From the NCBI RefSeq assembly GCF_036507355.1, contig NZ_AP027877.1: DNA of 64,000 nt, one strand, 5' to 3'. Every line of letters begins with the position of its first letter. Positions within the stretch are counted from its first letter, which is position 1. Made by a program: the position numbers and the translations under genes. Source of the DNA: Escherichia coli (GTDB lineage Bacteria; Pseudomonadota; Gammaproteobacteria; Enterobacterales; Enterobacteriaceae). This document shows positions 43,725 through 61,655 of the stretch, piece by piece. The notes under the pieces were generated by a model. It made no database searches, had not been told where the DNA came from, and saw only the letters and a list, made by a program, of their open reading frames with translations.

Positions 43725-43775
43725 ACCGCCCCGGGAATCCTGGAGACTAAACTTCCTGAGAAAGAGGTAAACAGG

Positions 43776-44989: not shown

Positions 44990-45153
44990 GTTCACAGATA
45001 AAACACTCTCCAGGAAACCCGGGGCGGTTCACACTATTATTTCTCCGGTTAGCCTACAACAACGTTTTTATCAGAAGCTCAACCAGCAGATAATAGAAAT
45101 GAAAAACCCATTGCAGTGAAATTATTTTTGACAACATACAGCAGGAGTAAAAA

Positions 45154-45999
45154 ATGTTACGTGGTTCAGAAAGAAAAGAAGCATTAGCCAGTCTCAAAAG
45201 TGCAACTAACCGTTATGAAGTACAGGCTAAAGACACCCAGGATGAGATCACTGCCCTCTTTCTGTTACGCCAGAAATGCAGTAAGGACCTGATTGCCCGT
45301 GGTGAAAATTTTGTTAATCGACTGGCGAATACACCGAAAGAGTTTGATAAATCCTGGAGCGAATTGAAAGCGGAAATCGCTGAATTTGATAACGTGGTGG
45401 AAAAACTGGAAGAAGAATACCGCGCATCACATATTGGTAAAGGAACGGCTGCTGCGGGGGTTGCCGTTGGGGCGGGGGTCGCCGCATTTGCCCCTACGGC
45501 TGCGCTGGCGGTCGCAACAACTTTTGGTACAGCATCCACGGGTACCGCTATTGCTACGTTAAGCGGAGCTGCCGCAACAAATGCAGCCCTGGCATGGCTC
45601 GGCGGCGGCGCACTGGCTGCGGGTGGCGGTGGCATGTCAGCAGGAAGCGCACTACTGGCTCTGGCGGGTCCAATAGGCTGGGGGATTGGTGCTGTAGGCA
45701 TCGCTGGCGGAACCTTACTAGCCCGTCGCAAAAACGGTAAAATCATTGATGAAGCACAACAGGAAGAGCGCCAGGTTCGCGCAAAAACCAGCGAACTTCG
45801 CGTGATGGAACGTGGTGCGCAAGAACTCAAGATGCTCACATCCGAGCACTATCATGGTACTGAAAGCATTATTGATGTGCTGGAAAAGGCTGCGCCTCAA
45901 GACTATTGCCAGTTTAATACCCATCAGAAAGATCAATTAGGGGCATTGATTAACCATATCAATGCATTATCAAAACTGATCAACAAGAAAATCCAGTAA
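45154..45999 (+). CDS. Hypothetical coiled-coil protein with central Gly/Ala-rich transmembrane segment
   Basis: AGGAG ribosome-binding site; about 100-aa Gly/Ala-rich glycine-zipper-like hydrophobic region flanked by coiled-coil-like sequence. Confidence 0.6.
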   Translation: MLRGSERKEALASLKSATNRYEVQAKDTQDEITALFLLRQKCSKDLIARGENFVNRLANTPKEFDKSWSELKAEIAEFDNVVEKLEEEYRASHIGKGTAAAGVAVGAGVAAFAPTAALAVATTFGTASTGTAIATLSGAAATNAALAWLGGGALAAGGGGMSAGSALLALAGPIGWGIGAVGIAGGTLLARRKNGKIIDEAQQEERQVRAKTSELRVMERGAQELKMLTSEHYHGTESIIDVLEKAAPQDYCQFNTHQKDQLGALINHINALSKLINKKIQ

Positions 46000-47444
46000 T
46001 GAGCATTAACCATAATACAGTTGGCGACCAGCTTATCGGCAGCGCGGTTAACGCCATTAATCAGACCCGCATTGATAATGAACTGTTAAAACTATCGCAG
46101 CAGGATCGTGCATTTGAGTTGGCTGGCGAACAAATGCAAAAGGTGCGTGATTTCATCGCGTCACCGGGTAACATCCTGGGCTCAATGAGCACCAAACACG
46201 GTGAAATTGCTGAGCAGGTAGAAGTTGGCGTGCGCAATGCTCGCCAGGCAATAGAAGAAAGGGTTCAGGATGCCTCTGATCTTAGCGCCACGTTTGACGG
46301 AGTGGGTCGAACCGCTCCGGCGGATTATATGATAGATGGCGTTGACGTGCAGTCAAAGTTTATCAACGGAGTTAATAATAACCTGAACCATGTCCTTCAG
46401 CACATGGAAACCTATCCCAATTTCACCCGGGGAGAATCCTTTTACCATATCCCCAAAGACTCCTGGCAAACGATTCAGGATGTTATTGATGGGAAGCCGG
46501 TGGAGGGCTTGAGCGAAAAAACAATACAGGCTATCAGGGATAAAGTTGCAGAAATTGAAAGTACAACGGGAAGATCCTTTAATGATGTCGTGCGTCCTGG
46601 AGTTTCTGATTACAAAGATGTTCAGTGGGGAAAAATTGACGAAACTCTTGATAAACATGATCAGGAATTAGCGGAACAGAACGAGGCAAAAAAAGCAGAA
46701 ATTATTGACGATCACCAACCCTCCCTAAGTGAAGGCATGCGTGCAACCGCAATGGGAGCCGCTTTCGGTGGAACCTTTGCTCTTGTAACAGGTATATATA
46801 GCAAATACCGTGACGGTAAAAATATATTTCGTGGAGATTTCAACAGACAGGACTGGCAGGATGTCGGCTTAGATACATTGAAAGGTGCCGCTATTGGCGG
46901 TGTATCCGCCGGAGCAATTTATACCCTGACCAATTATGCCTCTCTGGGAGCACCGTTCGCCAGCGCGCTGGTCACTGCCGCTAAAGGTGTAAGCAATCTT
47001 GCTCTCTCCTATCAGCGCGGTGAGATTAATGCTGATGAATTTACCGATCTTGGCCTTATCATCTGCGCGGAATCGGCCATCGTTGGCGCAATGTCTGTCG
47101 CAGGTCAGGCAATCATCCCTGTGCCTGTTTTGGGGGCATTGGTTGGTTCTATCTCAGGGAAGTTTATGGTTACCGTAGCTAAAAATCTGGACAGTAAAGC
47201 ACGCCAATTGCTGGCGAAAAAAATGGAGCAATTTACATGTCGCTTAAGTGAGATTGAGCAGAAAGCACTCAACCGAATTTTGAACGAGTTCGCGGCGCTG
47301 GGTGAGCTTACCGCAGCTGCATTTAGCGTGGAAAACAATCGCCGGTTGCTGGAAGCAAGCATCACGCTTGCCCAAGCCCACGGTGTTGAAGAGGCGAAGA
47401 TAATCAAAAATGCGGATGATCTTGACACATTTATGATGGCGTAG
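45999..47444 (+). CDS. Hypothetical membrane protein (N-terminal soluble domain, C-terminal Gly-zipper TM bundle)
   Basis: Start overlaps upstream stop (TAATG); C-terminal GxxxG/A-rich hydrophobic helices. Confidence 0.6.
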   Translation: MSINHNTVGDQLIGSAVNAINQTRIDNELLKLSQQDRAFELAGEQMQKVRDFIASPGNILGSMSTKHGEIAEQVEVGVRNARQAIEERVQDASDLSATFDGVGRTAPADYMIDGVDVQSKFINGVNNNLNHVLQHMETYPNFTRGESFYHIPKDSWQTIQDVIDGKPVEGLSEKTIQAIRDKVAEIESTTGRSFNDVVRPGVSDYKDVQWGKIDETLDKHDQELAEQNEAKKAEIIDDHQPSLSEGMRATAMGAAFGGTFALVTGIYSKYRDGKNIFRGDFNRQDWQDVGLDTLKGAAIGGVSAGAIYTLTNYASLGAPFASALVTAAKGVSNLALSYQRGEINADEFTDLGLIICAESAIVGAMSVAGQAIIPVPVLGALVGSISGKFMVTVAKNLDSKARQLLAKKMEQFTCRLSEIEQKALNRILNEFAALGELTAAAFSVENNRRLLEASITLAQAHGVEEAKIIKNADDLDTFMMA

Positions 47445-47480
47445 CACTCGAATAAAAATTACAGCAAGGATAAAACCACA

Positions 47481-50003
47481 ATGCTACAGATAATTGGTGC
47501 GTTAATTTTACTGGTAATCGGTTTTGTTATTATAAAAGCGTTGTTTAAGGCATCTCTCAATATTCTAGGTGTGATATTAGGATTGGGTGCATTGATTGTT
47601 GCAGGCCCACCTTTATTGGCGGGCTATATTGTAGAGCGCGTAACCTATGCGCTTCACTCACGTTGGCTGCTGGGTGTACCTCTTGCCATAGCAGGAATGG
47701 TGATTAGCTTTATGTGGGGACTTGATGGTAAACATATTGCCTACGAAGCCTATTCATTTGATTCAATGAAGTTTATTTTAACCGCTGCATTTGCCAGTGG
47801 CCTGCTTGCAGTACCTGTACAAACCAAGGCTATTCTACAAAACGGGCTTATACCAGCCGATATCAATGCCAAACTTAAAGAGTATTATTGCTGTTTTTAT
47901 ACGTCTTACTTTTTGATGGCCTGCTCTGCGGCTACACCGTTTATAGCCTGGCAATATAATATCTCATCTTCACTGATGTGGTGGACAGGATTGCTATACT
48001 GGATAGCAGCCTTACTGACACAGTTCTATGCGGCAAACCAAATTCAGGAACTCAAGAAGTTAACTAATGCCATCAATACAGGGTTAAATGAGCAAAAAGC
48101 GATCAATAACCAACTTTGGCTGACGGAACTAAAAGAAGGAAGTAACCTCTCAGCAGAATTCGTAGAGACTATCTATCTTAAGTTGGTCTCACAGCATATT
48201 TTTCAGGGCGATACTCGAGAGCAGGATCTGGCTGGTGAAAACTGGCTTTTAAATGATGCCTGGTATGAAAGAAAGATGGCTGAATTTAATGAGCAGTTAA
48301 ACAGTAAAATTGTACACTCATCAGATGAGCTAAGAAGCCTTTTTGGTAATAGGCTGAATTTACCCTCTGCTGCGAATGATGATCTCCTGAACCGTTATCT
48401 TGATGGTGGGAACTATTATTCTTTTTCGGATGGTCGAAAATTTGTCTCGTTTCACTATGTCGACGAGCTTTGTACCTGCACTTCATGCGGTTTGAGCGAG
48501 ATTAAAAACGCAAAACACCAGGACGGTTGTGGGAGCCAGGAATGGTATTGCTCTGATATTTGCCGGGAAACGGAAAAACTCTGCATTGAAATTCACAAGC
48601 GACCACAGGCTGAATTTATTTCCAGTGCAGCAACAAACGGTCTGATTCTCATGACGCTCCCGGAGGCCTGGAATACTAACGAAAAAATGTTTGCAGTGGG
48701 AGGACAAGGACATGGTTTTGCAGCCGAACGGGGAAATCATCTTACTGACAAAATCCAACTAAAAGATGCACATATTCTCGGTGATGATAATGCGAAAAAT
48801 GGTGCAGACAGGCTGGTTAACGGTTCAGAGATTCAGACCAAATACTGTGCAACCGCTGCACGTAGCGTCGGTGCTGGTTTTGACGGACAAAACGGTAATT
48901 ATCGCTATTATGACAGTAACGGAACCCCAATGCAGTTAGAGGTTCCGAAAGACCAGTATTCGAAAGCGCTTGAAACGATGGAGAACAAAATTCGCGATGG
49001 CAAAGTCCCCGGCGTTACCGATCCTGCAGAAGCCACAAAACTTGTACGTCAGGGACACCTGACTTATAGCCAGGCACAAAACATTACTAAGTTTGGCACG
49101 TTCGAATCTATCACTTACGACATTGCGGAAGGATCTATCATCAGCCTCGCAGCTGGAGGTATCAGCTTCGGTCTGACAGCTTCTATTTTCTACCTCAATA
49201 CCGGCGATCGTAAGGCTGCGTTGCAAACGGCAGCAATACAGGCAGGTAAAACATTTACCCGCACACTGACAGTTTATGTGACGGTACAGCAATTACACCG
49301 TATCAGTGCCGTTCAGGGGTTACTTAAAAATATTGATTTTGCCGCTGCCAGCCCGACAGTTCGTAATGCGCTTCAACAGGGAGTCGGAGCTAACAATCTC
49401 AACTCCCTTAACAAGATGATGCGTGGCACACTGGTTACCTCTTTCGCACTGGTCGCCGTGACCACTGGTCCGGATATGATCAAAATGGTGCGAGGTCGTA
49501 TTTCTGGGGCACAGTTTATAAAAAATCTGGCAGTTACTTCATCTGGTGTGGCTGGGGGGGCAATTGGTTCTATTGCTGGCGGAATGATGCTTAGTCCATT
49601 AGGTCCTTTCGGTGCTTTAGCAGGACGCGCAGCTGGTGGCTTGTTAGGCGGTATGATTGCCACAGCGATTTCCAAAAAAATAGCGGGTGCACTGGTTGAA
49701 GACGACCGAGTAAAAGTGCTGGCTCTCATCCAGGAACAGGTTACATGGCTTGCAACAAGTTTCATGCTTACAGCACACGAACTTGAAAACCTGAACGCGA
49801 ATCTGGCAACAGTAATTGACCAAAAAACCCTGGAGGTTATCTTCGCCGCAAAAGAGCAAGACCGAGCAACGGCCAATATGCTGATTAAACCACTTGTAGT
49901 AAGTGTGGTTAAGCAACGACCGGTCCTGAGCTATGAACAATCGCAAATCTGCGAAATGGTCGATCAGCTTGATACATCGGTTTCATTATCTGCTGTTGCA
50001 TAA
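47481..50003 (+). CDS. Hypothetical large membrane protein (N-terminal TM helices, Cys-rich central region, C-terminal Gly-rich TM region)
   Basis: 840-aa ORF with AAGGA ribosome-binding site; Cys cluster CTCTSCG...CGSQEWYCSDIC; Gly-rich C-terminus. Confidence 0.6.
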   Translation: MLQIIGALILLVIGFVIIKALFKASLNILGVILGLGALIVAGPPLLAGYIVERVTYALHSRWLLGVPLAIAGMVISFMWGLDGKHIAYEAYSFDSMKFILTAAFASGLLAVPVQTKAILQNGLIPADINAKLKEYYCCFYTSYFLMACSAATPFIAWQYNISSSLMWWTGLLYWIAALLTQFYAANQIQELKKLTNAINTGLNEQKAINNQLWLTELKEGSNLSAEFVETIYLKLVSQHIFQGDTREQDLAGENWLLNDAWYERKMAEFNEQLNSKIVHSSDELRSLFGNRLNLPSAANDDLLNRYLDGGNYYSFSDGRKFVSFHYVDELCTCTSCGLSEIKNAKHQDGCGSQEWYCSDICRETEKLCIEIHKRPQAEFISSAATNGLILMTLPEAWNTNEKMFAVGGQGHGFAAERGNHLTDKIQLKDAHILGDDNAKNGADRLVNGSEIQTKYCATAARSVGAGFDGQNGNYRYYDSNGTPMQLEVPKDQYSKALETMENKIRDGKVPGVTDPAEATKLVRQGHLTYSQAQNITKFGTFESITYDIAEGSIISLAAGGISFGLTASIFYLNTGDRKAALQTAAIQAGKTFTRTLTVYVTVQQLHRISAVQGLLKNIDFAAASPTVRNALQQGVGANNLNSLNKMMRGTLVTSFALVAVTTGPDMIKMVRGRISGAQFIKNLAVTSSGVAGGAIGSIAGGMMLSPLGPFGALAGRAAGGLLGGMIATAISKKIAGALVEDDRVKVLALIQEQVTWLATSFMLTAHELENLNANLATVIDQKTLEVIFAAKEQDRATANMLIKPLVVSVVKQRPVLSYEQSQICEMVDQLDTSVSLSAVA

Positions 50004-50192
50004 TGAAAGGTATAAATTCATTACCATCGTGATATGGTGCTTCAGACGAAGCAAACTTAAATACCATTAACCCCATGATACTATTGTAAAATCCAAAAAA
50101 AATAATAGTAATCATCATAATGAACTGGTTCGAACAGACTGCGGAAGAGTATGGAGAATTAACAAATAAGGGGGCATTTGCCCCCTTCATCA

Positions 50193-50618
50193 TTATTTCA
50201 GTCGTTTACCTGCATCATCAACGACTTTCTCGCCGTCTTCCTTAGCAAATGCGCCTTTTTGCGCATCCGGAAGAATATCCAGTACCACTTCGGAAGGACG
50301 GCACAGACGCGTTCCCAATGGTGTCGCCACAATCGGGCGATTAATCAGGATCGGATACTGAAGCATAAAATCGACTAACTGATCGTCAGTAAACTTATCT
50401 TCCGCAAGCCCCAGTTCTTCATAAGGTTCAACATTTTTACGCAATAGTGCCCGTACCGTTATCCCCATATCTGCGATGAGTTTGAGCACCTCATCGCGTG
50501 AAGGTGGATTTTCAAGGTAAAGAATAACGTTCGGTTCAGTACCGCTGTTGCGGATCATCTCCAGCGTATTACGCGACGTGCCGCAGGCTGGGTTGTGATA
50601 AATAGTGATGTTGCTCAT
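50193..50618 (-). CDS. arsC: Arsenate reductase (glutaredoxin-type)
   Basis: 141-aa ORF MSNITIYHNPACGTSRNTLEMI... recognised as ArsC. Confidence 0.92.
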   Translation of the reverse strand: MSNITIYHNPACGTSRNTLEMIRNSGTEPNVILYLENPPSRDEVLKLIADMGITVRALLRKNVEPYEELGLAEDKFTDDQLVDFMLQYPILINRPIVATPLGTRLCRPSEVVLDILPDAQKGAFAKEDGEKVVDDAGKRLK

Positions 50619-50630
50619 ATCAATATCTCA

Positions 50631-50840
50631 TTACAAAGTGAAAGAGAGACGTAGCGCCAGCGCGGCCAGCGTTACAAACAGCACAGGCAGAGTCATGATG
50701 ATCCCGGTGCGGAAATAGTATCCCCAGGTGATGGTCATGCTCTTCTGTGAAAAGACATGCAGCCAGAGTAGCGTTGCCAGGCTACCAATAGGTGTAATTT
50801 TCGGCCCCAGATCGCAGCCAATCACGTTGGCATAAATCAT
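50631..50840 (-). pseudogene. arsB: Arsenite efflux pump ArsB, C-terminal fragment only
   Basis: 69-aa ORF matches only the C-terminus of ArsB; no upstream arsB or arsR sequence. Confidence 0.8.
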
Positions 50841-51072
50841 CGCCTCTTTGATAACGCATCATACTGCCAGCGGAATAACTCTCTTCGTCAATACGGCTCT
50901 CGCTGTACGCTTACCCATCTAGAGAGGTTTCAGGTGATTATCGATGTCAGAAGACTGAATGATTCAGTCGTTTACTTTGAGATAGATCAGAGGTTTTTCA
51001 CTACCTGTGTTCATCACATGGCTACGAATAGTAGAATCCAAGCATAAATTAACGCTTAGAAAAGTTGAGCTC

Positions 51073-52272
51073 ATGAGATTCCACCCTGAAGGGCCTTCCA
51101 TACCCGATATCCTCTTAGAACGCTGTGATACAGGTCGAGTTGTATTTCTCTGTGGCGCTGGGGTTTCATTACCTTCAGGGATGCCAAGCTTTGTAGAGCT
51201 TACCCAGCATGTAATTGAATACTTTGACCCACCACACGATTCAGAAATCATGGCAGCATTTCGCCCATGGCTTCACGACCAATCTTCAGCTAATGTCCCT
51301 CTCGACCAAATTTTCAACCTCCTACATCTGGAATATGGCAAGGATGAGGTGAATGCTTTGGTATCAAAGCGTCTGGGGACTGCAAGAACTGATATAGAGA
51401 TTGGACGTGAGCATGCCCTGATTAAAAGAATTTCCTCAAATCAGAGTGGTGTCCCACAGATTGTCACAACGAACTTTGACCGACTGTTCGAGGATAACCA
51501 AGCGCAAGATAATCTAACTCGATATGTGCCGCCAGCTTTCCCAAATCTGAATTTCGGTTCGACAATTGAGGGAATAACATATCTTCACGGCCGCCTGGTC
51601 GACGAAAATGCTGTAAACCATCCTTATGTGCTGAGCAGTGCAGACTTTGGAAGAGCATATCTTTCAGAAGGATGGGCGACCAATTTTATTAAGCTTCTTC
51701 TGGAACGATACATCGTTGTTTTGGTCGGTTATCAGGCAGAAGACCCACCAGTTAAATACCTCCTTCAGGGTCTCAATCATGATGGCCAGTATGATCGTTC
51801 CAGACTTTATGCATTTGATCGCGGCCTTGCCGAGGATATCGAAGCCAAATGGCGTGACAGAGGAGTTACAGCCATAGCCTATTCCGATCATCCAGCTCTT
51901 TGGAAGACTTTGGAAGCATGGGCTGAGCGAGTAGATGATCCACGTCGATGGCGAGCTTCTATTATCGCTAAAAGCCAGCAAGATCCGAAAGTTCTAGCAC
52001 CGTATGAACGTGGTCAACTTGCCCATATACTTCGCACTACACAAGGTGCGAAATTGTTCTCTGAAGCTGTTCCTCTTCCCCATCCAGAGTGGCTTTGTGT
52101 GATGGATGCAAATATTCGGTCAGCCAAACAGAAGAAAAGATACTACGAACTTGATGACAATGATGCAGAGACCTTCGATCCACAAGAAGCTTATGGGCTT
52201 GATGACGATCTGCAAGATATCGCTGATGATGAACGTAAACGTGGAGTGAGTAACGATAATCTCCTTGAATAG
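51073..52272 (+). CDS. SIR2-like (sirtuin-family) domain protein; first segment of a larger interrupted reading frame
   Basis: SIR2-type motifs VVFLCGAGVSLPSGMPSF and VTTNFDRLFE; ends at an in-frame TAG (52270). Confidence 0.7.
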   Translation: MRFHPEGPSIPDILLERCDTGRVVFLCGAGVSLPSGMPSFVELTQHVIEYFDPPHDSEIMAAFRPWLHDQSSANVPLDQIFNLLHLEYGKDEVNALVSKRLGTARTDIEIGREHALIKRISSNQSGVPQIVTTNFDRLFEDNQAQDNLTRYVPPAFPNLNFGSTIEGITYLHGRLVDENAVNHPYVLSSADFGRAYLSEGWATNFIKLLLERYIVVLVGYQAEDPPVKYLLQGLNHDGQYDRSRLYAFDRGLAEDIEAKWRDRGVTAIAYSDHPALWKTLEAWAERVDDPRRWRASIIAKSQQDPKVLAPYERGQLAHILRTTQGAKLFSEAVPLPHPEWLCVMDANIRSAKQKKRYYELDDNDAETFDPQEAYGLDDDLQDIADDERKRGVSNDNLLE

Positions 52273-52308
52273 CGCGACGAAGATGATAACCCGTCAGATT
52301 ACCATCGC

Positions 52309-52998
52309 TTGGCTGGATGTTTGGAGACAATGCCGAAACGATTGAGCCATCTCATGGTCTGGTTCTGCAAATCTCTTGATAGCCCCGTGATGGCTTGGTG
52401 GGCTATCCGAAAAATCAGTATTCATCCTCTACTACTACAAAATATTGAACGCAATATTGAGCATTCAACATCAATCCACAAACGCGCTCGTCAACTGTGG
52501 GGCTTAATTCTTGAACATCATAAAGATCCCCGCAATCGTCGTTATGACGTCGATTGGTACGACTTAAAAGCTCGAATTACAAAACAAGGCTGGACAGCTG
52601 GTGTCTTACGAGAATTTCGTAGGGTAATGACACCCCGATTGGAAAAGAAGTTGCCGTATGGATTGGGTGAAGTCAGACCGCCAAGCGGCTCCTGGGAGGA
52701 AATTCAGTTCAGCGAATTTGGCCAATTTGAAGTTGTGTTCACCGAAAGACATGATGACGATTTAGACGTACCTGACAATGTATTACTACAAGTATTTAAT
52801 GCCTTAGAAGCGCAAATAATAATTGCCTCCGGAATGTTAGAGGATATTGATACGCACTACTTTCCAAGCCCAAGTTGTTATCCAGAACGTGCGGTTGAAG
52901 GAGAAGAACATTTCGCGAAAGGTGCGGAGGTATTAACTTGGTTTGTCCAACTTTTAGACCGAGTTGTTATGAAGTGGCCAGAATTGGCTAAGGCATAA
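52309..52998 (+). CDS. Hypothetical protein; same frame as the upstream SIR2 ORF, likely central part of one disrupted gene
   Basis: Frame open from 52273 with no stop; ends at an in-frame TAA (52996). Confidence 0.5.
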   Translation: MAGCLETMPKRLSHLMVWFCKSLDSPVMAWWAIRKISIHPLLLQNIERNIEHSTSIHKRARQLWGLILEHHKDPRNRRYDVDWYDLKARITKQGWTAGVLREFRRVMTPRLEKKLPYGLGEVRPPSGSWEEIQFSEFGQFEVVFTERHDDDLDVPDNVLLQVFNALEAQIIIASGMLEDIDTHYFPSPSCYPERAVEGEEHFAKGAEVLTWFVQLLDRVVMKWPELAKA

Positions 52999-53103
52999 GT
53001 AACAACTTGGCCAGTTAAGGAGCCATTTTTCTTCCGAAAGCTTAGACTTTATGCATTCAGTAAAAAAGGCGTCTTTGAGGCTGACCGTGTTGCCGAAGAG
53101 CTT

Positions 53104-54882
53104 TTGTCTTTGGATCAAAGTGGATTTTGGGACACAAATATTACCCGCGAACTTCTTTTTCTGCTCACTGATCGTTGGGAAGAATTCTCGCAAGAAAATC
53201 AGAATCGAATTATAGAGCATATATTAACCGGCCCGAACCATTTACTTTATTTGTCTGAGGAAGACATTCCAAAAGAAAGAGAGATATTAGCAGCTAGATA
53301 CGCTCGTTATCTCGAACTAAACGGCTGTAAAGTAACCACTATTCATCGTGACCAACTAACTGCGATGATTAAAAGAATTCCTGACTGGAATGATGGCTGG
53401 GCTACATCTGTTGTCATCAATTGGGGTTCACGGACAGGTTGGGTTCGTACAGACGAAAAGCCAGATATAATCTTAGATCTTCCAGCAAACGAAATAATCC
53501 CAAAAGTAAAAGAGATACTTAAACGAGAGGATGATAGCTTTACTAGTAGGCAACCCTTTGTCGGATTGATAAAAGAAAATCCGCGTAAAGCTTTGTCTGC
53601 ACTCGCTATTGCAGGGAGAGGCGGTGATTACCCTAAGGAATTTTGGTCGCCAATGATAAGTGAGTTACCTATAGATCTTAAACCAAGGGTGAGACGAGTA
53701 TTCCTGAACCGAATTGTGCGATTGCCAGTTACAGCTTTGGTCGAGTTACGACATACATTAAGTAACTGGCTTGAACAAAATTTAGCTGCGACTCTTGAAT
53801 TTGATGAGGATCTCGGGTGGGCAGTTTACGATCATGTCATAGCAGGCATACTGAGTGGTGGCGCCAGTGCAATACGGAGTAGTTTCGGAGAAGTTATCCG
53901 GAATGGAGAAGTTGTAATACAGTCTCGCCGCACGTTCAGTCATGCAATCAATGGTCCTGTCGGTAAATGTACTCAAGCGCTTTTTCAAGCAATGCCAAGT
54001 GAAGAGAAAAAAGCTGGTTCGCTTATTCCTTACTCTATTAAGTCTCGTATTGAACATCTTTTTACTGCACCAGGAGAAGGAGCGGACCACGCTATAGCTA
54101 TAACGTCTCGCAATCTAAATTGGCTAATGTTTGTTGATCCTGCATGGGTAAAGGAATGGCTTATACCCCTTTTGGATTTAAAACATCCTGCAGCAGAACC
54201 AGCATGGAATGGTTATCTTCAGTGCAATGCTATGCCTTCAATTGCAGTAGCTGAACTTATTAAACCAGCTTTTCTTAACCTTATCCCTTGGATCGAATCT
54301 CTTTCTTGGGAAAAAGATTATTCAGTTCGAGCTTCGCAATGGCTTGGCTTAATGAGAATGTTTCACCCTGATGAGCCCTCCAGTCCTTCCAGGAATGAAA
54401 TGCGCTCCATATTACGAGCATTATCTGACGAGGCTCGAAATCGTTTTATTTCCTGGTTAGGATTGGTCGGGCAGAAAAACGAGAGTGGCTGGGTTAAGTA
54501 TGTGATCCCATTAATCAGAGAGGACTGGCCCAAAGAACGCCAATATAGAACCACGAGCTCTGTAAAAGCATGGATTGGTTTACTTGACGATACTGGCGAT
54601 AAGTTTCCGGAGGTTTACGATTCAGTAAAAACATACTTAGTACCAATCGAGACAATTGATCATTTGTTCTACAGATTCACTCGGGAGCTCGGTGGTAAAG
54701 GAGCAATTGCGGCTATTTTTCCAGAAACCACGCTTGATTTAATGGACAAAATAACACCACTGATATTCACGCGTACATCAGGAGAGCTGCAGAAGATTCT
54801 TGAGCTAATTGAAGATACAGATACAAGTCTGATCAAGGATTCTCGGTACTTACGGCTTATTGCACTGGTTGAGAAAAATTAG
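53104..54882 (+). CDS. Hypothetical protein; same frame as the two upstream ORFs, likely C-terminal part of the SIR2-containing gene
   Basis: Frame open from 52999 with no stop; 592-aa helical protein, no motif recognised. Confidence 0.5.
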   Translation: MSLDQSGFWDTNITRELLFLLTDRWEEFSQENQNRIIEHILTGPNHLLYLSEEDIPKEREILAARYARYLELNGCKVTTIHRDQLTAMIKRIPDWNDGWATSVVINWGSRTGWVRTDEKPDIILDLPANEIIPKVKEILKREDDSFTSRQPFVGLIKENPRKALSALAIAGRGGDYPKEFWSPMISELPIDLKPRVRRVFLNRIVRLPVTALVELRHTLSNWLEQNLAATLEFDEDLGWAVYDHVIAGILSGGASAIRSSFGEVIRNGEVVIQSRRTFSHAINGPVGKCTQALFQAMPSEEKKAGSLIPYSIKSRIEHLFTAPGEGADHAIAITSRNLNWLMFVDPAWVKEWLIPLLDLKHPAAEPAWNGYLQCNAMPSIAVAELIKPAFLNLIPWIESLSWEKDYSVRASQWLGLMRMFHPDEPSSPSRNEMRSILRALSDEARNRFISWLGLVGQKNESGWVKYVIPLIREDWPKERQYRTTSSVKAWIGLLDDTGDKFPEVYDSVKTYLVPIETIDHLFYRFTRELGGKGAIAAIFPETTLDLMDKITPLIFTRTSGELQKILELIEDTDTSLIKDSRYLRLIALVEKN

Positions 54883-55040
54883 CATTTATGGTTTTTTACC
54901 GTTGTTGATTACTCAGCAACACTTTTCGACATGCCGTAGCGCTTATCGCCTGTTCTTGACTAAGATGAGAAGCAGGCGTTAAAGTTTGGTTAAAGGAGAA
55001 CCTCTAACCATTCCTTCTGGAAGAAATAATCTTTGGAGTA

Positions 55041-55769
55041 TTATTGAAATTGCTCAAATATACCATGCAACCCAATAAATTTTATTTTTAGTGCAGGATC
55101 ATGCCTTAGAACAGTCTCAAGTGAGTTCCGCTCATAAATTATTGATTGTGCTTGTATTGAGCCGTTCCATGAAGGCAAAAGCAGTAAAGCAGATGTTTCC
55201 AAATCAATACCCCACCAATCGTTAACATAGCAATTTAAAAAATCAACAAGAGCCTTAATCGCAATAAAAGCATCTTTTTCGGTATATGTTTCAGGATCGA
55301 GGGATATACCTGATATATTACTTTTAGCTTGCTCGGAATTAATATTAGACTGGTGTTGATAAGCAATTTTTCCTTCACCCGGTTTAGTTTCTATTGTATC
55401 AGTGAAAATTTTAATCTTAGGATGCACCAATGCATTTCGTTGTGCTATTAATTCTTTTATTATTTGTGTTTGAGTGGTTCCACGAGGTAAAGACATGTCT
55501 TTATGCCATTGAAGAGTATAGTCAAATTTATCAAGTGAAGAGAACCTGTCAATTTGATCTTTTAACTTTTGCGTTATTTCTATAGAAGATAAAAATGAGT
55601 TAGCTGCAGCCTCAATAGCGTAGTTAATTGAAAGTACACTTGATTTGGCAAGTGTTTTTTTGATGTGTGATTTTTTTGTTGCAGCTGATAATTCATAAAG
55701 AGTTATTGCATCAGAAAAAAGCTCAAAAAAGCTGTTCTTGGTTATTTCAACTTTTCTTTTCACACGCAA
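55041..55769 (-). CDS. Hypothetical protein (third gene of AT-rich operon)
   Basis: 242-aa ORF, visibly AT-rich; no motif recognised. Confidence 0.6.
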   Translation of the reverse strand: MRVKRKVEITKNSFFELFSDAITLYELSAATKKSHIKKTLAKSSVLSINYAIEAAANSFLSSIEITQKLKDQIDRFSSLDKFDYTLQWHKDMSLPRGTTQTQIIKELIAQRNALVHPKIKIFTDTIETKPGEGKIAYQHQSNINSEQAKSNISGISLDPETYTEKDAFIAIKALVDFLNCYVNDWWGIDLETSALLLLPSWNGSIQAQSIIYERNSLETVLRHDPALKIKFIGLHGIFEQFQ

Positions 55770-55852
55770 CCCTCTGCATAAAAAATAAAATCATATAGAC
55801 AGAATACAATTTCCTATAATCTTTACATTCTACTAATTGTGGATATAAATGG

Positions 55853-57325
55853 CTATCGAGAATAAGAACTGGGTTTAGGAAAACCACCTCTGACGACGAC
55901 AACAACAATTGCAACTTGAGATTGACCTGTTGGATGAGTGAATACTTCAATATCATCCTCTATTACTCCCACCGGCGCTGATTTTGACGTTGATTCCAGA
56001 ACAACCAAAATACCGATACGCTTACCTAATCCAATGGCATAAGCTGCTGTTTGATCGAAATATTTTTGAAAATCCTTGGGAAAAAGAACCTTATTATTTT
56101 CAACTTTTAGTTCTATCGGAATGTCTTCAAATGTGAGATCCGTTATCCCGCCAGCAGCCTCTGGATGGCCTTGTAATTTCTCGCCAATCTCATTCCTACT
56201 TCTAAGCATTTCGGCTATTTTACGCTGAAATTTTTGCTCTGATGTGCCAGCAATAAATAAACTAGCTTTAAGAGCTTGTGCTGCAACATTTCCTAAGCCG
56301 CCAAGTATAACCATTGTATTAGCAATGTCATCTGAGTGTAATCCAGGGAAAGCTCGTAATATGTTACGAATTTTTATAAGATGCCTATCGACGTTTGAAA
56401 ATCCAGTTAATGGAGCTTGAGCGGAATCACTCCCTTCAAGTAGTAAGCGCCTATGTCCTACGATAGCAATATTTTGGCAATTACTTAAATTGTCAAACTC
56501 GGCAGCATATAGGAATTCGTAAGGTCTCGAGCCAAATGAATTTGCCACTTCCAAGACGACACGACCGATCCCCTTCAGTGTGAAGGGGCCTTCCCCCTCT
56601 GGTTTCTCAAATCTAAAATCAGGCAACCAGTCTCGCTCACGAGCATCAATTGTCACTGGCTTTAATGAGAGGAAATTTGCACTTTTTGGCCAATTTGAAA
56701 CCCTGACCTCTATGTTAAGGTCATAAGCCGTACCCGGCTTAAGATAATTCCATTGCTGAGCTGGTTCCCCATCAATATCAAACTTTAGAAATGCAACTGT
56801 CGATTCTTGTGTTTTATTCTCTTTTGTCTCTTTACTAGATATTCCTTGCCTAATCTCCTCAATATTTTTATCGCGAAGATTTGCGAATAAGAGTAGTGGC
56901 AATGACCAGCTTGTTAACTGGTCTTGTATTTGTTTTAATGAATCTAATTTACTGATTGAACGGACTTGCTCTATAAATTCATTAAATTGTTTGTTCTCCG
57001 AGAGACTCGTCGTCATGTCGATCTCTGATGCTTTTAATTGTGCTGAATTTAAAAACCTTTGAGCATCAGTCTCAGCATTACGTATAGCATGTTTCCACTC
57101 AGCTAGAGTTACAAATATAGTCATTGCTATATAATATGCACGATATTGATCTTCAACATATCCCTGACCGAGCTCATCGAGCGTTTCATTGAGCTTTTGA
57201 CACGCTTCTTTAAGTTTCACCAAGTCATTCGGAATGGACTTGAGTGCACCATCCAACGCTGCTGCAATCTCAACCCTCGGAGAAAAAGCTTGGCGGAAAA
57301 TCTCGAAATTTGGCTCGTTCTTCAT
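55853..57325 (-). CDS. Hypothetical protein (second gene of AT-rich operon)
   Basis: ORF 55853-57367; start placed at ATG 57325; overlaps the 3' end of the upstream gene. Confidence 0.6.
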   Translation of the reverse strand: MKNEPNFEIFRQAFSPRVEIAAALDGALKSIPNDLVKLKEACQKLNETLDELGQGYVEDQYRAYYIAMTIFVTLAEWKHAIRNAETDAQRFLNSAQLKASEIDMTTSLSENKQFNEFIEQVRSISKLDSLKQIQDQLTSWSLPLLLFANLRDKNIEEIRQGISSKETKENKTQESTVAFLKFDIDGEPAQQWNYLKPGTAYDLNIEVRVSNWPKSANFLSLKPVTIDARERDWLPDFRFEKPEGEGPFTLKGIGRVVLEVANSFGSRPYEFLYAAEFDNLSNCQNIAIVGHRRLLLEGSDSAQAPLTGFSNVDRHLIKIRNILRAFPGLHSDDIANTMVILGGLGNVAAQALKASLFIAGTSEQKFQRKIAEMLRSRNEIGEKLQGHPEAAGGITDLTFEDIPIELKVENNKVLFPKDFQKYFDQTAAYAIGLGKRIGILVVLESTSKSAPVGVIEDDIEVFTHPTGQSQVAIVVVVVRGGFPKPSSYSR

Positions 57326-59843
57326 ATTCTTTCTCCAACTCAGCCGTAAGACCATTCCATTTTTCAATTAAGTCATTATAGGGTTCGCAAACACTTATGG
57401 CATGTTCAATGCTAGCTGCTTCTGTAACTAAAGCAGCCTTAAGTTTCCATTGTGTATTTCTTTCATCATTTGGAATTTCTTCCAGTAGTTCCTTTAAACA
57501 AACATTTGCAGTTACGTTATCACCACACTTGCTTAACGCAGCCACGTACACTAATGCTTCAATAAATTGTTGAGGTTTAAATGGTTTCAGAGCATTGAAT
57601 GCTTTTTGGAGATCGTCTTTACAATTTCGAAGCTCATTATGTGGCGCTCTTAATATCACTGAGATGCAGTCATCAATAGAAATACTGCGAGTATACTCAT
57701 CCTGAATTGCTTTGAGTGCGACTTTGACAAAACCGGGAATATCATCAAAATGAAAACGCAATCGATTGATAGCATCATAAAGTGCACTTCCTTCTAAAAT
57801 TAATAATATATTAGAAAGAAGCAATCCAATTTTCCCCTTTCTCTCTTCATCTGATAAGCAAAGAGAAGAAAAAACGTCAATGCATTCTACAATGAAATTA
57901 TCTTTTTTATCTTGTTGAATATAATAGCAAATTAGATTCCATAGCCGGGATCTCACAAGTCCCCGTTTCTCCTCAGGAAAAGATCTACGGCTCAAAGCGC
58001 GAACAGCATACTGATGCACCATAACATATTGATCTAATAGCAAGACTGAATATGCTTCGAAGAATAAATCTGGGAAATTCTTCACTAAATCATAGGGAAC
58101 ATTTTCCCACGCTTGTACGGCACGTGCTCGAATCAATGTACTCTCATCCATAAGAGCACGATACCAATCGGAGAGCACTAGTGTTAGGCTGTCAATACCA
58201 GTTAATAACTTAGAAACATGGGCAATCATGTTCCCACGCATTTGAGTTTGTTCTTCTGGTAAGCTTCTATAGAGATGAAGAAAATCATCGATTCCTTCAC
58301 TCCCTCTAGATTTAGCTCCAATCGCAGCCCATTCAATCAATGCACCCTGTAAGCCATCAATAGCATTACGCTTATTACTTTTATCTAAATGATCTAGAAA
58401 ACTCTCATTTATTTCTATGATTTTTTCTTTATTCAACGCCTCAAATTTCTCGCTTAGCGTTGCAGCCGCTCCGATCAAATCGTCAAAATTATCAACTGCA
58501 AGCTCAGCAAATTCGTCCCAAGAGTGTCTAAAGAATTGTCCTGCATCATCCATGCTATCCTCTGGATTTTCCACAGCAGCCCAGAGCAAACGCCTAAAAG
58601 CTATTTTTTGTGTCTTTCCTGTTTTACTTTTTTTTCTATAGTTATTTCGCAGTACAGATCTGTAAGCTCTATTGGCCTCATGTCTCCCAATATCATCTTT
58701 GTCAGCAAGATAGGATTGAATAACTTTATCGCTTTCATCGGGAAATCTATCTAAGTATTTCGTAGCAGCCTCCCGAAGAAAGAAAAGAATGCTGCTATCT
58801 CTCCGCTCCTCCGGGAGTAGAGTCCGTCGACGCATCAGCTTAGCAAATATACTTCTAATATGTCTTAGAAGCAGCTCATCATCATCCGATGCAATAATTA
58901 TCTCAATAGCAAATTGAAATTTTCCCCGGTGAGTATCTTTTATGTATTCATCAACAACATCACAGATATCAGCTTGTCTTTTTTTAAAAAGTGACTGAAT
59001 GGGGCCTTTATTAAGTACTTTTCGCTCAAATGTGCCAATCATCATTCCAGGAGGAGATTCAACAGCCATTCTAACAAAGTGGTAAAGGACTTTTAAGAAA
59101 TCATCTTCAGATAGATTCTCTGCTTCCAAGAGGATTGCTTCTATAGCTGGTGGACAATATTCGAAGTTGTTTATTAAATATACTGAAATTGCCAGTTTTT
59201 CCGCTTGTGATAATTCAGTTCTTATTAAAGCTTTTGCTGCTGGCATTGAATATGGTAATTTCTCATGTAACACTGCAGGCAACAAGTGTTCAATTATTTT
59301 ACTTGTAAATGTCTCAGGTGCCAGATTAGCAAGTTGTTCCAAACGGGGATCGTTGTTCTCTATATCCTCTTGATCGAGTTCATCAAGCAAATCAAGCACA
59401 AACGTTTCTTCTAGAGTAAGTGAAAGACGTAATACTGCTCGTTCTTGTTGTCTATTGAGCTGCTTCTGCTTTCTCTGCCTTTCTTCTTCTTTGCGAGCCA
59501 AATTTCGTTCTTCGGCAGATTTTTCTCTTGGGCCTACAAACTCTAAAATATTGGGAAATCCCACCGGAACCCGTTGATTACAATGTTTACAGTTCTGTTT
59601 ATAGAAGCTGTAAACCGAGTCTTCCAGCAGCCAGCTAAGCATTGAACTTTGCTTAACAAATTTGCATTGAACTCCCATGTGACCAATGGGTAACCCTGTT
59701 TCAGCCTCAATCATGCCTCTCCCCTCTGATCGAATGAATTCAGAGTGAGAACACCAGTTACTAAGTAGGTGTACAGCACGGAGATTTCGTTGACCAGCTT
59801 CGATTGCCTCTTCAAATCTTTTTTTATCTTCAAAATCATCCAT
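57270..59843 (-). CDS. Hypothetical large protein (first gene of AT-rich operon), N-terminal Cys/His cluster
   Basis: 857 aa; N-terminal C/H-rich segment (CSHSEF...C...CKHCNQ), then charged coiled region and helical repeats; no NTPase motif. Confidence 0.6.
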   Translation of the reverse strand: MDDFEDKKRFEEAIEAGQRNLRAVHLLSNWCSHSEFIRSEGRGMIEAETGLPIGHMGVQCKFVKQSSMLSWLLEDSVYSFYKQNCKHCNQRVPVGFPNILEFVGPREKSAEERNLARKEEERQRKQKQLNRQQERAVLRLSLTLEETFVLDLLDELDQEDIENNDPRLEQLANLAPETFTSKIIEHLLPAVLHEKLPYSMPAAKALIRTELSQAEKLAISVYLINNFEYCPPAIEAILLEAENLSEDDFLKVLYHFVRMAVESPPGMMIGTFERKVLNKGPIQSLFKKRQADICDVVDEYIKDTHRGKFQFAIEIIIASDDDELLLRHIRSIFAKLMRRRTLLPEERRDSSILFFLREAATKYLDRFPDESDKVIQSYLADKDDIGRHEANRAYRSVLRNNYRKKSKTGKTQKIAFRRLLWAAVENPEDSMDDAGQFFRHSWDEFAELAVDNFDDLIGAAATLSEKFEALNKEKIIEINESFLDHLDKSNKRNAIDGLQGALIEWAAIGAKSRGSEGIDDFLHLYRSLPEEQTQMRGNMIAHVSKLLTGIDSLTLVLSDWYRALMDESTLIRARAVQAWENVPYDLVKNFPDLFFEAYSVLLLDQYVMVHQYAVRALSRRSFPEEKRGLVRSRLWNLICYYIQQDKKDNFIVECIDVFSSLCLSDEERKGKIGLLLSNILLILEGSALYDAINRLRFHFDDIPGFVKVALKAIQDEYTRSISIDDCISVILRAPHNELRNCKDDLQKAFNALKPFKPQQFIEALVYVAALSKCGDNVTANVCLKELLEEIPNDERNTQWKLKAALVTEAASIEHAISVCEPYNDLIEKWNGLTAELEKEYEERAKFRDFPPSFFSEG

Positions 59844-60246: not shown

Positions 60247-61443
60247 TTATGAAGCACTCCTGAGAGCAACCCTTCCAACTTTATCAATATAATCCGCATA
60301 CCACTGCATCATCTCTCTCCTGCCTTCCAAATACAGCGCATGGTTGTACGTCCCGCGAATCGCATTCTTATCGACATGCGCAAGCTGGGTTTCAATCCAT
60401 GCGGTATTGAACCCTTCCTCATGCAAAATCGTACTCATCGTGTGGCGGAAACCATGCCCCGTTACCTTCCCCGTGTACCCAATCCGCTTAAACACCTGAT
60501 TAATACTCGCTTCGCTCATTGTTTTGCGGGGATCATTCCTCCCAGGAAACACCAGAGGATATTGCCCAGACATCACTTTGAGCTGCTGTACGATCTCCAG
60601 CGCTTGGGTAGAGAGGGGCACCAGGTGAGGCCGTTTCATCTTCATGCGCTCTGCAGGTATTTCCCACACCGCTTTTTCAAGATCAAACTCACTCCAGAAA
60701 GCACCTCGAAGCTCACCGGTGCGAACCCCCGTAAGGATCAGCAAACGTGCGGCAAGAACAACCAGCGGGCTGCCTGTATAGCCAGAAAGAGCTTTAAAGA
60801 AATCTGGTAACTCCTCAACGGTAAGGAAGGGATAATGCTTCGATTCATGCCCTGACATCGCGCTGGTTAGATCCGCAGCCGGATTGTATTCCGCACGACC
60901 GGTAACTATGGCGTAGCGAAAGACTTCGCTGCAGCGCTGGCGAACTTTCTTGGCCTTCTCTGTCGCACCACGGCTTTCCATTCGACGCAGTACATTCAAC
61001 AGAACAAGAGGCTTAATTTCATTGACTGGCTGCTGACCGATATAGGGAAAAATATCTTTATTTAAAGCTTCGATAATGTCCGATGCATACCCTTCTGACC
61101 ATCTGCTCACCTTCGTACCGTGCCACTCAAGCGCCACAGACTGGAACGTATTATTGAGCTGCACATCACGAACCAGCTTTTCTTCTTTCTTGGCAAACGA
61201 TGGATCGATACCCTCGGCCAGCTTTTTCTTGGCTTCATCGCGTAGTGCCCTCGCTTGAGCAAGGGACACTGCCGGATAAACGCCAAAAGCCATACGCTTC
61301 TCTTTTCCATTGAAGCGATATTTCATTCGCCAGTATCGAGAACCAGAGGGAACGACTTCAAGATACAAACCAGCACCATCTGCCAGCTTATAGGCTTTCT
61401 CTCTGGGTTTAGCTGCATCTACCTGTCGCGCATTTAGCTTCAT
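60247..61443 (-). CDS. int: P4-type tyrosine integrase (island right end)
   Basis: Start taken at MKLNARQVDAAKP (ATG 61443); boxes VRTGELR, GHGFRHT, RGTYNHALY; paralogous to the integrase at 14127. Confidence 0.9.
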   Translation of the reverse strand: MKLNARQVDAAKPREKAYKLADGAGLYLEVVPSGSRYWRMKYRFNGKEKRMAFGVYPAVSLAQARALRDEAKKKLAEGIDPSFAKKEEKLVRDVQLNNTFQSVALEWHGTKVSRWSEGYASDIIEALNKDIFPYIGQQPVNEIKPLVLLNVLRRMESRGATEKAKKVRQRCSEVFRYAIVTGRAEYNPAADLTSAMSGHESKHYPFLTVEELPDFFKALSGYTGSPLVVLAARLLILTGVRTGELRGAFWSEFDLEKAVWEIPAERMKMKRPHLVPLSTQALEIVQQLKVMSGQYPLVFPGRNDPRKTMSEASINQVFKRIGYTGKVTGHGFRHTMSTILHEEGFNTAWIETQLAHVDKNAIRGTYNHALYLEGRREMMQWYADYIDKVGRVALRSAS

Positions 61444-61606
61444 TGGGGGCATCTCCCTGGACCGAACACAGAATGCCCCCACTTATGCCCCCAACTGTAA
61501 CTTGATTCCGGTTGAGTCCAGTTGATAACAGGAGATAAAATACGGGCTAGAAACCGCAGTATACGGGCTTTTAGTTGATTTCGGTAGACTTGGGAAGAGT
61601 TTGAAA

Positions 61607-61655
61607 TGGTGCCGATAATAGGAGTCGAACCTACGACCTTCGCATTACGAATGCG
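61607..61655 (-). other. thrW: tRNA-Thr(CGU) 3' fragment, 49 nt (anticodon arm to CCA); att-core remnant, not a complete tRNA
   Basis: Reverse complement CGCATTCGTAATGCGAAGGTCGTAGGTTCGACTCCTATTATCGGCACCA folds as anticodon stem-loop (anticodon CGT), T-arm and acceptor 3' strand; 5' half absent. Confidence 0.8.

What the first reader, a model, noticed from the sequence alone, without database searches (positions are those of the whole stretch)
51007..54882. SIR2-domain reading frame of about 3.9 kb broken by exactly two in-frame stop codons
The three ORFs at 51007-52272, 52309-52998 and 53104-54882 are all in the same frame, and the stretches between them (52273-52308 and 52999-53103) contain no stop codon. 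The whole region is therefore one reading frame of about 1290 codons interrupted only by a TAG at 52270 and a TAA at 52996. The N-terminus carries SIR2-like motifs (GAGVS...G.P.F and TTNFD), so this looks like a DSR-type defence sirtuin (SIR2 plus a large C-terminal domain) inactivated by two nonsense mutations, or a case of stop-codon readthrough.
Basis: seen in the sequence. Interest (0 to 1): 0.6.

Follow-up and report, generated by a model that had tools for sequence, protein, structure and literature searches.

The report
Dsr1-like defence sirtuin pseudogene
This is an anti-phage "defence sirtuin" gene of the Dsr1 type that two single-base changes have turned into a dead gene in this E. 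coli strain; it is an ordinary case of a defence gene decaying inside a fast-changing genomic island.

Summary
Window 51073-54882 (+) is one 1269-codon reading frame broken only by TAG at 52270 and TAA at 52996. The other five frames carry 43-106 stops.

Near-identical E. coli loci settle the question. Strains PSJ-29 and Z226-5 carry one intact gene with TGG (Trp400) and TAC (Tyr642) at those codons. ET826 has only the TAA. So both stops are derived single-base nonsense mutations, and TAA very probably came first.

All 114 full-length homologues aligned (62-93% identity, Enterobacterales to Pseudomonas) are single proteins of about 1269 aa with sense codons at both sites.

The intact protein has an N-terminal SIR2 domain and an alpha-solenoid C-terminal region of about 870 aa. 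It matches PADLOC Dsr1 models (E 8e-86 and 3e-79). It aligns end to end with canonical E. coli Dsr1 at 22% identity (E 4e-60). It falls below NCBIfam's Dsr1 equivalog cut-off (379 bits against 1400).

Readthrough is unlikely. RF1, encoded in the same window, is identical to a reference RF1; the window has no tRNA gene; and no homologue has a stop at either site.

An independent read-based assembly reproduces both stops.

Sister alleles of the same gene are also hit by IS903B and by an IS1-mediated deletion.

Verdict: an ordinary, recent pseudogene of a divergent Dsr1-like clade. Low interest.

The parts
51073..54882 (+). Whole Dsr1-like SIR2 pseudogene: 1269 codons plus the natural stop
   Evidence: Single frame. 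The intact orthologue in PSJ-29 is annotated as one 'SIR2 family protein', WP_338387174.1. PADLOC Dsr1 E 8e-86 and 3e-79.
51007..51072 (+). In-frame upstream extension from a GTG; probably not translated
   Evidence: All full-length homologues begin at MRFHPEGP, which is ATG 51073. PGAP start choices differ between identical sequences.
51073..52269 (+). Fragment 1, codons 1-399: complete SIR2 domain (GAGVS at 28, TTNFD at 132, YLHG at 170) plus an acidic linker
   Evidence: Pfam SIR2_2 PF13289 at aa 129-268, E 1.5e-13. Motif positions. On record as WP_338387635.1, 399 aa.
52270..52272 (+). Nonsense codon TAG (Trp400 to stop; TGG to TAG, G to A at 52271)
   Evidence: TGG in ET826, PSJ-29, Z226-5 and EC2641. 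Trp in 109 of 110 homologues. The residue lies in the low-confidence linker of the model, residue 11.
52273..52995 (+). Fragment 2, codons 401-641: start of the alpha-helical sensor region
   Evidence: Conserved as coding sequence in the homologues. Helical in the AlphaFold model.
52996..52998 (+). Nonsense codon TAA (Tyr642 to stop; TAC to TAA, C to A at 52998)
   Evidence: TAC in PSJ-29, Z226-5 and EC2641; TAA also in ET826 and ET881. His or Tyr in 113 of 114 homologues, Arg in one, never a stop. The residue lies inside helix 247-256 of the model.
52999..54882 (+). Fragment 3, codons 643-1269 plus the natural stop: remainder of the alpha-solenoid sensor region
   Evidence: Aligns to the C-terminal part of the Dsr1 profiles: PADLOC PDLC04167 positions 628-1242, NCBIfam NF041818 positions 449-1261. 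Alpha-solenoid model with mean pLDDT 79. Only generic HEAT/ARM-repeat fold matches.

Best explanation
Window 51073-54882 is a recently inactivated copy of a single-gene anti-phage system of the Dsr1 type. The ancestral product is a 1269-aa protein. Its N-terminal SIR2 domain is an NAD+-degrading effector, held in check and switched on by a C-terminal alpha-solenoid sensor of about 870 aa. In canonical E. coli Dsr1 that sensor recognises a phage major capsid protein. In this lineage a C-to-A change made Tyr642 a TAA stop, cutting the sensor. A later G-to-A change made Trp400 a TAG stop in the linker just after the SIR2 domain. Shown: the two substitutions, their derived state, homology to Dsr1, and the domain layout. 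Inferred: the order of events, from allele sharing; that the intact protein depletes NAD+ on infection, by homology; and that the 399-aa SIR2 stub, lacking its sensor, gives no defence, by analogy with DSR2 and EcDsr1, where the sensor and assembly are needed for activation.
For: There is one frame with only two internal stops, against 43-106 in the other frames. The intact 1291-codon CDS annotated in PSJ-29, and the same intact frame in Z226-5, differ from the window at 3-4 bases in 4101, with TGG and TAC at the stop codons. ET826 differs by one base (TGG) and shares the TAA. The 120 best homologue clusters are nearly all 1265-1272 aa with 100% coverage. In 114 aligned homologues, codon 400 is Trp in 109 of 110 and codon 642 is His or Tyr in 113 of 114, Arg in one, and the former 'intergenic' stretches are conserved coding sequence. 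Family evidence: PADLOC Dsr1 E 8e-86 and 3e-79; NCBIfam Dsr1 E 6e-113; an end-to-end BLASTP alignment with an NF041818-positive E. coli Dsr1 at E 4e-60, with TTNFD and YLHG conserved; Pfam SIR2_2; a helical-repeat C-terminal model. The gene stands alone in other defence islands, for example next to Gabija-like genes in Pseudomonas aeruginosa. Both stops are reproduced in a Logan assembly of SRR26926489, 100% identical over 8197 bases, and in RefSeq/DDBJ proteins WP_338387635.1, WP_338387636.1 and BED22757-9. Published function: DSR1 depletes NAD+ during infection (bioRxiv 10.1101/2021.12.14.472415); EcDsr1 is triggered by a phage major capsid protein through its sensor (PMC12803255).
Against: No expression or activity data exist for this allele. 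The protein is only 22% identical to canonical EcDsr1 and scores 379 bits against the 1400-bit NCBIfam equivalog cut-off, so its trigger and exact biochemistry are extrapolated. An SD-like GGAGA sits 2 nt upstream of ATG 52330, so fragments could in principle be translated separately. I could not show that SRR26926489 is a different isolate from the window's source.
Confidence: 0.93

Rival explanations
1. The gene is functional through stop-codon readthrough or suppression: UAG and UAA are decoded as sense codons often enough to give full-length protein.
For: Both stops are in frame and the downstream frame is still fully open. The base after the TAG is C; from general knowledge this is a comparatively leaky context in E. 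coli.
Against: Alleles that are 99.9% identical have ordinary sense codons there, so no recoding signal has evolved. None of 114 homologues has a stop at either site. prfA (RF1, which reads UAG and UAA) lies in the same window and is 100% identical in protein to a reference E. coli RF1, and prmC is intact. The window has no tRNA gene, hence no island-borne suppressor. Two successive readthrough events, one at UAA, would give a negligible yield (general knowledge).
Confidence: 0.02
2. The locus now works as a split system: the three fragments are translated separately and reassemble, or the SIR2 stub acts alone.
For: The 399-aa fragment keeps the whole SIR2 domain. A GGAGA motif precedes ATG 52330. 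PGAP annotates the fragments as separate CDSs.
Against: No homologue is organised as three genes. The breakpoints are single-base changes. One lies inside a predicted helix of the solenoid (model residue 253) and not at a domain boundary. There are no convincing promoter-like sites inside the gene; the scan found 5 sites against 9.0 expected from shuffles. In DSR2, NADase activation needs the intact sensor and tetramer assembly (PMC11850899).
Confidence: 0.03
3. One or both stops are sequencing or assembly errors and the strain really has an intact gene.
For: Among the 5426 complete RefSeq E. coli genomes searched, none carries the TAG.
Against: The changes are base substitutions, not homopolymer indels. 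TAA recurs in the independent complete genomes ET826 and ET881 and on 10-12 contigs. TAG plus TAA recur in a separate read-based Logan assembly.
Confidence: 0.02

Closest known systems
Dsr1 (defence-associated sirtuin 1; EcDsr1 WP_029488749.1 of Gao et al. 2020; NCBIfam NF041818; PADLOC Dsr1)
   Same: A single-gene system. N-terminal SIR2 domain with the GAG-x-S, TTNFD and YLHG motifs. Nearly the same length (1269 against 1263 aa). An end-to-end collinear alignment (E 4e-60). A long helical-repeat C-terminal region. Located in a defence island.
   Different: Only 22% identity. It scores 379 bits against the 1400-bit equivalog cut-off, so it belongs to a separate clade with no experimental data that I found. 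The copy in this window is a pseudogene with two nonsense codons.
DSR2 (Bacillus subtilis 29R; structures such as 8YG1 and 8YGA)
   Same: The same logic: an N-terminal SIR2 NADase plus a C-terminal HEAT-like alpha-solenoid sensor that binds a phage structural protein and activates NAD+ depletion (PMC11850899, PMC10973363).
   Different: No detectable sequence relation. PADLOC returns no Dsr2 hit. A phmmer search of all PDB chains finds nothing at E <= 0.01. Foldseek against the PDB returns only generic karyopherin and CAND1 repeats with TM <= 0.27.
Avs7 (STAND NTPase with a Dsr1-type sensor)
   Same: According to PMC12803255, Avs7 and Dsr1 share a bilobed TPR-like sensor that recognises phage major capsid proteins.
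   Different: The protein here has no STAND NTPase module. I did not test its relation to the Avs7 sensor directly.

Membership tests
Dsr1 (defence-associated sirtuin 1) | N-terminal SIR2 domain with the conserved NAD-binding and catalytic motifs (GAG-x-S; Asn/Asp of TTNFD; His of YLHG) | tested here: met
   Pfam SIR2_2 E 1.5e-13. Motifs at residues 28, 132 and 170, nearly invariant across the aligned homologues, and aligned to the same motifs in canonical E. coli Dsr1.
Dsr1 (defence-associated sirtuin 1) | Long C-terminal helical-repeat sensor region homologous and collinear with that of Dsr1 | tested here: met
   BLASTP alignment of residues 1-1263 to residues 1-1259 of an NF041818-positive Dsr1, E 4e-60. 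PADLOC PDLC04167 positions 628-1242 and NCBIfam positions 449-1261 are matched. The model is an alpha-solenoid with pLDDT 79.
Dsr1 (defence-associated sirtuin 1) | Significant match to PADLOC's Dsr1 models | tested here: met
   PDLC04167 E 8.3e-86; PDLC02183 E 2.8e-79.
Dsr1 (defence-associated sirtuin 1) | Reaches the curated NCBIfam equivalog cut-off (NF041818, 1400 bits) | tested here: not met
   378.8 bits, E 5.7e-113. A canonical E. coli Dsr1 scores 1674 bits. This makes it a homologue from a different clade, not an equivalog.
Dsr1 (defence-associated sirtuin 1) | Stand-alone single gene found in defence islands | tested here: met
   In P. aeruginosa it stands alone between integrase/Rep genes and Gabija-like genes. 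In Serratia and E. coli it lies next to Olokun-like genes but with different upstream neighbours.
Dsr1 (defence-associated sirtuin 1) | NAD+ depletion on phage infection, triggered by a phage protein (major capsid protein for EcDsr1) | not testable with these tools
   Known only for other Dsr1 proteins.
Dsr1 (defence-associated sirtuin 1) | Intact open reading frame in this window, meaning a functional member | tested here: not met
   TAG at codon 400 and TAA at codon 642.
DSR2 | Sequence or profile similarity to DSR2, including its C-terminal domain | tested here: not met
   No PADLOC Dsr2 hit. No PDB chain at E <= 0.01; by my knowledge, not checked here, the PDB holds DSR2 structures. No DSR2 chain among the 50 best Foldseek matches listed.
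Programmed stop-codon readthrough / recoding | The stop codon is conserved at the site among homologues, with a conserved recoding context | tested here: not met
   Sense codons in all 114 homologues and in the 99.9%-identical alleles.
Programmed stop-codon readthrough / recoding | Altered termination machinery or a suppressor tRNA | tested here: inconclusive
   RF1 is 100% identical to the reference and prmC is intact. The window has no tRNA gene. The rest of the genome was not available.

The most novel reading that the evidence does not exclude
The decay is not neutral. In at most seven near-identical E. coli alleles the gene has been hit at least four independent times: Y642*, W400*, an IS903B insertion and an IS1-mediated 5' deletion. 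Two of the six variable sites are nonsense, against 4.7% expected per substitution. In the TAA sub-lineage, two of three genomes then lost or shortened the SIR2-bearing stub. This could mean selection to get rid of this Dsr1-like gene. One possible cause is a resident or frequently met phage capsid that triggers costly NAD+ depletion. Another is that the sensor-truncated 641-aa SIR2 fragment is itself harmful.
Probability: 0.2. Interest if true: 0.45.

Novelty: new member of a known kind. Interest (0 to 1): 0.2.

Why it matters
The practical value is for annotation. Tools that call defence systems protein by protein would see a 399-aa 'SIR2 family protein' and two 'hypothetical proteins' here, and could miss the system or wrongly count it as active. 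The intact sister allele in E. coli PSJ-29 (WP_338387174.1) is a ready-made reference for a widespread Dsr1-like clade for which I found no experimental data. The clade holds 728 sequences at 90% identity or more in Enterobacterales alone, and has 62-66% identical relatives in Pseudomonas and Halomonas. The set of near-identical alleles with different lesions is a small natural example of how quickly defence genes are lost. It does not open a new question.

Tried and rejected
1. Three genuine genes: rejected. Every close and distant homologue is one protein of about 1269 aa.

2. Readthrough or suppression: rejected on allele comparison, the absence of stops in homologues, an intact RF1 and no tRNA gene in the window. 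TAG and TAA are not selenocysteine codons and E. coli has no pyrrolysine system (general knowledge).

3. Assembly error: rejected for TAA because it recurs in several genomes. Made unlikely for TAG by the Logan assembly.

4. DSR2 membership: no support.

5. Pfam on the C-terminal 860 aa: no match even at E <= 10.

6. PDB sequence search: nothing.

7. Foldseek against the PDB: only generic HEAT/ARM solenoids with TM <= 0.27, so no specific structural relative.

8. Promoter and terminator scan of 50500-55200: fewer promoter-like sites than in shuffles, and no internal signals that would support separate genes.

9. A literature search for papers on pseudogenisation of defence systems gave nothing specific to Dsr1.

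10. The first Pfam call failed because the protein exceeds 1200 aa, so it was run in two halves.

11. The E. coli alleles already decide the question.
Full report
**1. The observation**

The six-frame ORF list and a direct translation of 50905-54984 show that the ORFs at 51007-52272, 52309-52998 and 53104-54882 lie in one frame. The only internal stops are TAG at 52270-52272 and TAA at 52996-52998. Counted from ATG 51073, the frame has 1269 sense or nonsense positions plus its terminator. The other five frames of the same region contain 43-106 stops. In 2000 shuffles the mean is 75 stops and the minimum 48. The pattern is real and far beyond chance.

**2. What the stops are**

A megablast search of 5426 complete E. 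coli genomes finds this DNA in six of them, all at 99% identity or more.

| Strain | State of the gene |
|---|---|
| PSJ-29 | one 3876-nt CDS, 'SIR2 family protein' WP_338387174.1 |
| Z226-5 (and Z226-6, not fetched) | one intact frame; PGAP merely picks a later start |
| ET826 | split into two CDSs |
| ET881 | 5' part removed next to an IS1 |
| EC2641 | IS903B inserted |

Base-by-base comparison gives the following:
- The window differs from ET826 at a single base in 4101 (52271, A against G).
- Codon 400 is TGG (Trp) in every other allele that retains it (ET881 has lost that segment).
- Codon 642 is TAC (Tyr) in PSJ-29, Z226-5 and EC2641, and TAA in ET826, ET881 and the window.

Both stops are therefore derived single-base substitutions: TGG to TAG and TAC to TAA. 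TAA is shared by three genomes that also share the synonymous GCG at codon 1213. TAG is private to the window. So TAA very probably arose first.

**3. Homologues elsewhere**

The window's protein falls in a 90%-identity cluster of 728 sequences from Escherichia, Salmonella, Citrobacter, Pantoea, Cronobacter, Klebsiella, Enterobacter and Yersinia. The typical length is 1269-1270 aa. A search of 5.8 billion proteins returns 2918 relatives. The best 120 clusters are 62-93% identical and include Serratia, Yersinia, Pseudomonas, Halomonas and Alcanivorax. Nearly all are 1265-1272 aa long with 100% coverage.

In alignments of 110-114 full-length homologues:
- Position 400 is Trp in 109 of 110.
- Position 642 is His in 100, Tyr in 13 and Arg in one.
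- All homologues start at MRFHPEGP, which is ATG 51073, so the GTG at 51007 is probably not the start.

The 'three separate genes' refuter therefore fails.

**4. Are the stops real?**

The TAA allele is present in two independent complete genomes, and its two products are on record from 10-12 contigs.

The TAG plus TAA allele is also on record. The 399-aa and 222-aa products are WP_338387635.1 and WP_338387636.1, with DDBJ entries BED22757-9 (locus tags VEE46_25250 to VEE46_25270) on a 4.64-Mb contig. This is presumably the window's source.

A Logan assembly of run SRR26926489 gives a contig 100% identical to window 50802-58998, with both stops. I could not establish whether that run comes from the same isolate. 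It does show that a different assembler working from reads produces the same bases. Both changes are substitutions, not homopolymer indels.

**5. What the intact gene is**

- Pfam finds SIR2_2 (PF13289) at residues 129-268, and nothing in the C-terminal 860 aa.
- PADLOC's Dsr1 models match with E 8e-86 and 3e-79, covering both ends of the protein.
- NCBIfam's Dsr1 equivalog NF041818 matches with E 6e-113 but only 379 bits, against a curated cut-off of 1400.
- An E. coli plasmid Dsr1 that passes that model (1674 bits) aligns with the protein from residue 1 to 1263 at 22% identity, E 4e-60. GAG-x-S, TTNFD and YLHG are conserved.
- An AlphaFold2 model of residues 390-1269 (29-sequence alignment, mean pLDDT 79) is almost entirely helical repeats.
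- Foldseek against the PDB returns only generic HEAT/ARM solenoids such as karyopherin beta2 and CAND1, with TM <= 0.27.
- A phmmer search of all PDB chains finds nothing.

In P. aeruginosa the gene stands alone in an integrase-bearing element next to Gabija-like genes. In Serratia it keeps the downstream 240-, 490- and 857-aa genes but has other upstream neighbours.

So this is a stand-alone, single-gene, Dsr1-type system from a clade distinct from the characterised EcDsr1.

**6. How it most likely works, and why it no longer does**

By homology (inference), the SIR2 domain is an NADase kept inactive until the C-terminal sensor binds a phage protein. DSR1 was shown to deplete NAD+ during infection (10.1101/2021.12.14.472415). 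EcDsr1 is triggered by a phage major capsid protein through its TPR-like sensor, and disrupting the effector abolishes defence (PMC12803255). In the analogous DSR2, NADase activation depends on trigger binding by the HEAT-like domain and on tetramer assembly (PMC11850899).

In the model numbering, Trp400 is residue 11, in the low-confidence acidic linker after the SIR2 domain. Tyr642 is residue 253, inside a helix of the solenoid. The first event (Y642*) removed about 630 residues of the sensor. The second (W400*) leaves a 399-aa SIR2 stub. Neither product can sense a trigger. Loss of defence is the expected result (inferred, not measured).

**7. Readthrough and other rivals**

- There is no recoding signature. 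The surrounding sequence is identical to that of alleles with ordinary sense codons, and no homologue has a stop at either site.
- The window itself encodes RF1 (prfA, 4541-5620, minus strand). It is 100% identical in protein to the copy annotated in the reference genome used for comparison (EC17CM13, WP_000804726.1). prmC is intact.
- ARAGORN finds no tRNA gene in the window. The rest of the genome could not be examined.
- A GGAGA motif lies before ATG 52330, so some reinitiation is conceivable. But a sensor cut inside a helix and the absence of any split homologue argue against a functional split system.
- The promoter and terminator scan gives no internal signals above the shuffle expectation.

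**8. Context and turnover**

The gene sits in a composite island that starts after ychF (integrase at 14127-15320) and runs to a second integrase at 60247-61482. The island carries:
- a 1300-aa P-loop NTPase
- a type I restriction-modification system
- a remnant of type I Zorya
- PDC-M09-like genes
- an Olokun-like pair

In this strain zorA1 is cut at 43721 by an IS3 element, and zorB1 to zorD are missing relative to ET826. arsB is a stump directly upstream of the SIR2 gene. Sister genomes show other lesions. ET881 has an IS1-mediated deletion of window 34915-52572. ET826 has ISKpn26 in oloA. EC2641 has IS903B in the SIR2 gene at about 54279-54287.

Across the alleles the gene has six variable sites, and two of them are nonsense. 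Only 4.7% of possible substitutions in this gene create a stop. That is suggestive of relaxed or negative selection on the gene, but the sample is tiny and the comparison is post hoc.

**9. Verdict**

This is an ordinary, recent pseudogene of a Dsr1-like defence sirtuin in a decaying defence island.

The clade is divergent from characterised Dsr1, and I found no experimental work on it. It is nonetheless recognised by existing models, so I rate it a new member of a known kind, of low interest. The one reading that would raise interest is selection for loss of this gene. It is not excluded, but it rests on few events.

Noticed in passing
window 42801-45000: The type I Zorya system is dead here. 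Only the first ~0.9 kb of zorA1 remains (ORF 42801-43724). It is cut at 43721 by an IS3 element that starts at 43717. zorB1, zorC and zorD (7.2 kb in strain ET826) are absent.
   Followed up: yes
window 50193-50855 (-): An intact arsC (50193-50618) is followed by a C-terminal stump of arsB (about 50631-50855), directly upstream of the SIR2 gene. The arsenic-resistance operon was truncated when this module was assembled.
   Followed up: partly
window 3708-5620 (-): prfA (release factor 1, 4541-5620) and prmC (3708-4538) lie in the same window and are intact. RF1 is 100% identical to WP_000804726.1. This was useful as a control against UAG/UAA readthrough.
   Followed up: yes
window 45154-50003 (+): A three-gene block: PDC-M09A (281 aa, PADLOC E 2e-120), PDC-M09B (481 aa, E 3e-214) and an 840-aa protein whose C-terminal half weakly resembles PDC-M09B (E 6e-5). 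This is a candidate defence system of unknown mechanism with an apparent extra paralogous gene.
   Followed up: partly
window 55041-59843 (-): An Olokun-like pair: OloB-like 55853-57367 (E 5e-58) and OloA-like 57270-59843 (E 3e-77). A conserved 240-aa gene of unknown function (55041-55769) lies next to them, converges on the SIR2 gene and matches no family. The same trio follows the SIR2 gene in Serratia (L013-L015). oloA is intact here but interrupted by ISKpn26 in ET826.
   Followed up: partly
window 19505-23407 (-): A 1300-aa P-loop NTPase (annotated KAP/YobI family in related genomes) lies in a low-GC (37-39%) segment. The segment is absent from ET826 but present in ET881.
   Followed up: no
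window ~61607-61655; L002 22709-22757: In PSJ-29 and Z226 the same SIR2/Olokun module sits at tRNA-Thr next to proA. In the window the match to that island ends inside the 3' part of that tRNA, although no tRNA gene is detected. This suggests a relic attachment site carried to a new location between ychF and ycgV.
   Followed up: partly
L005 (ET881) 11288-12001; window 34145-34920 and 52573: In ET881 an IS1 copy is joined directly to window position 52573. This deletes 17.7 kb (window 34915-52572), including the type I R-M system, the PDC-M09 genes, arsC and the SIR2-domain half of the gene. It is a second lesion on the TAA allele, independent of the window's TAG.
   Followed up: yes
cluster 2 (P0017-P0030): C-terminal fragments of this protein (132-643 aa), not flagged as partial, are on record from Klebsiella oxytoca, K. 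quasipneumoniae, Citrobacter portucalensis, Erwinia aphidicola, Phytobacter diazotrophicus, Cronobacter dublinensis and Salmonella enterica. This hints that disruption of this gene is common beyond E. coli.
   Followed up: no
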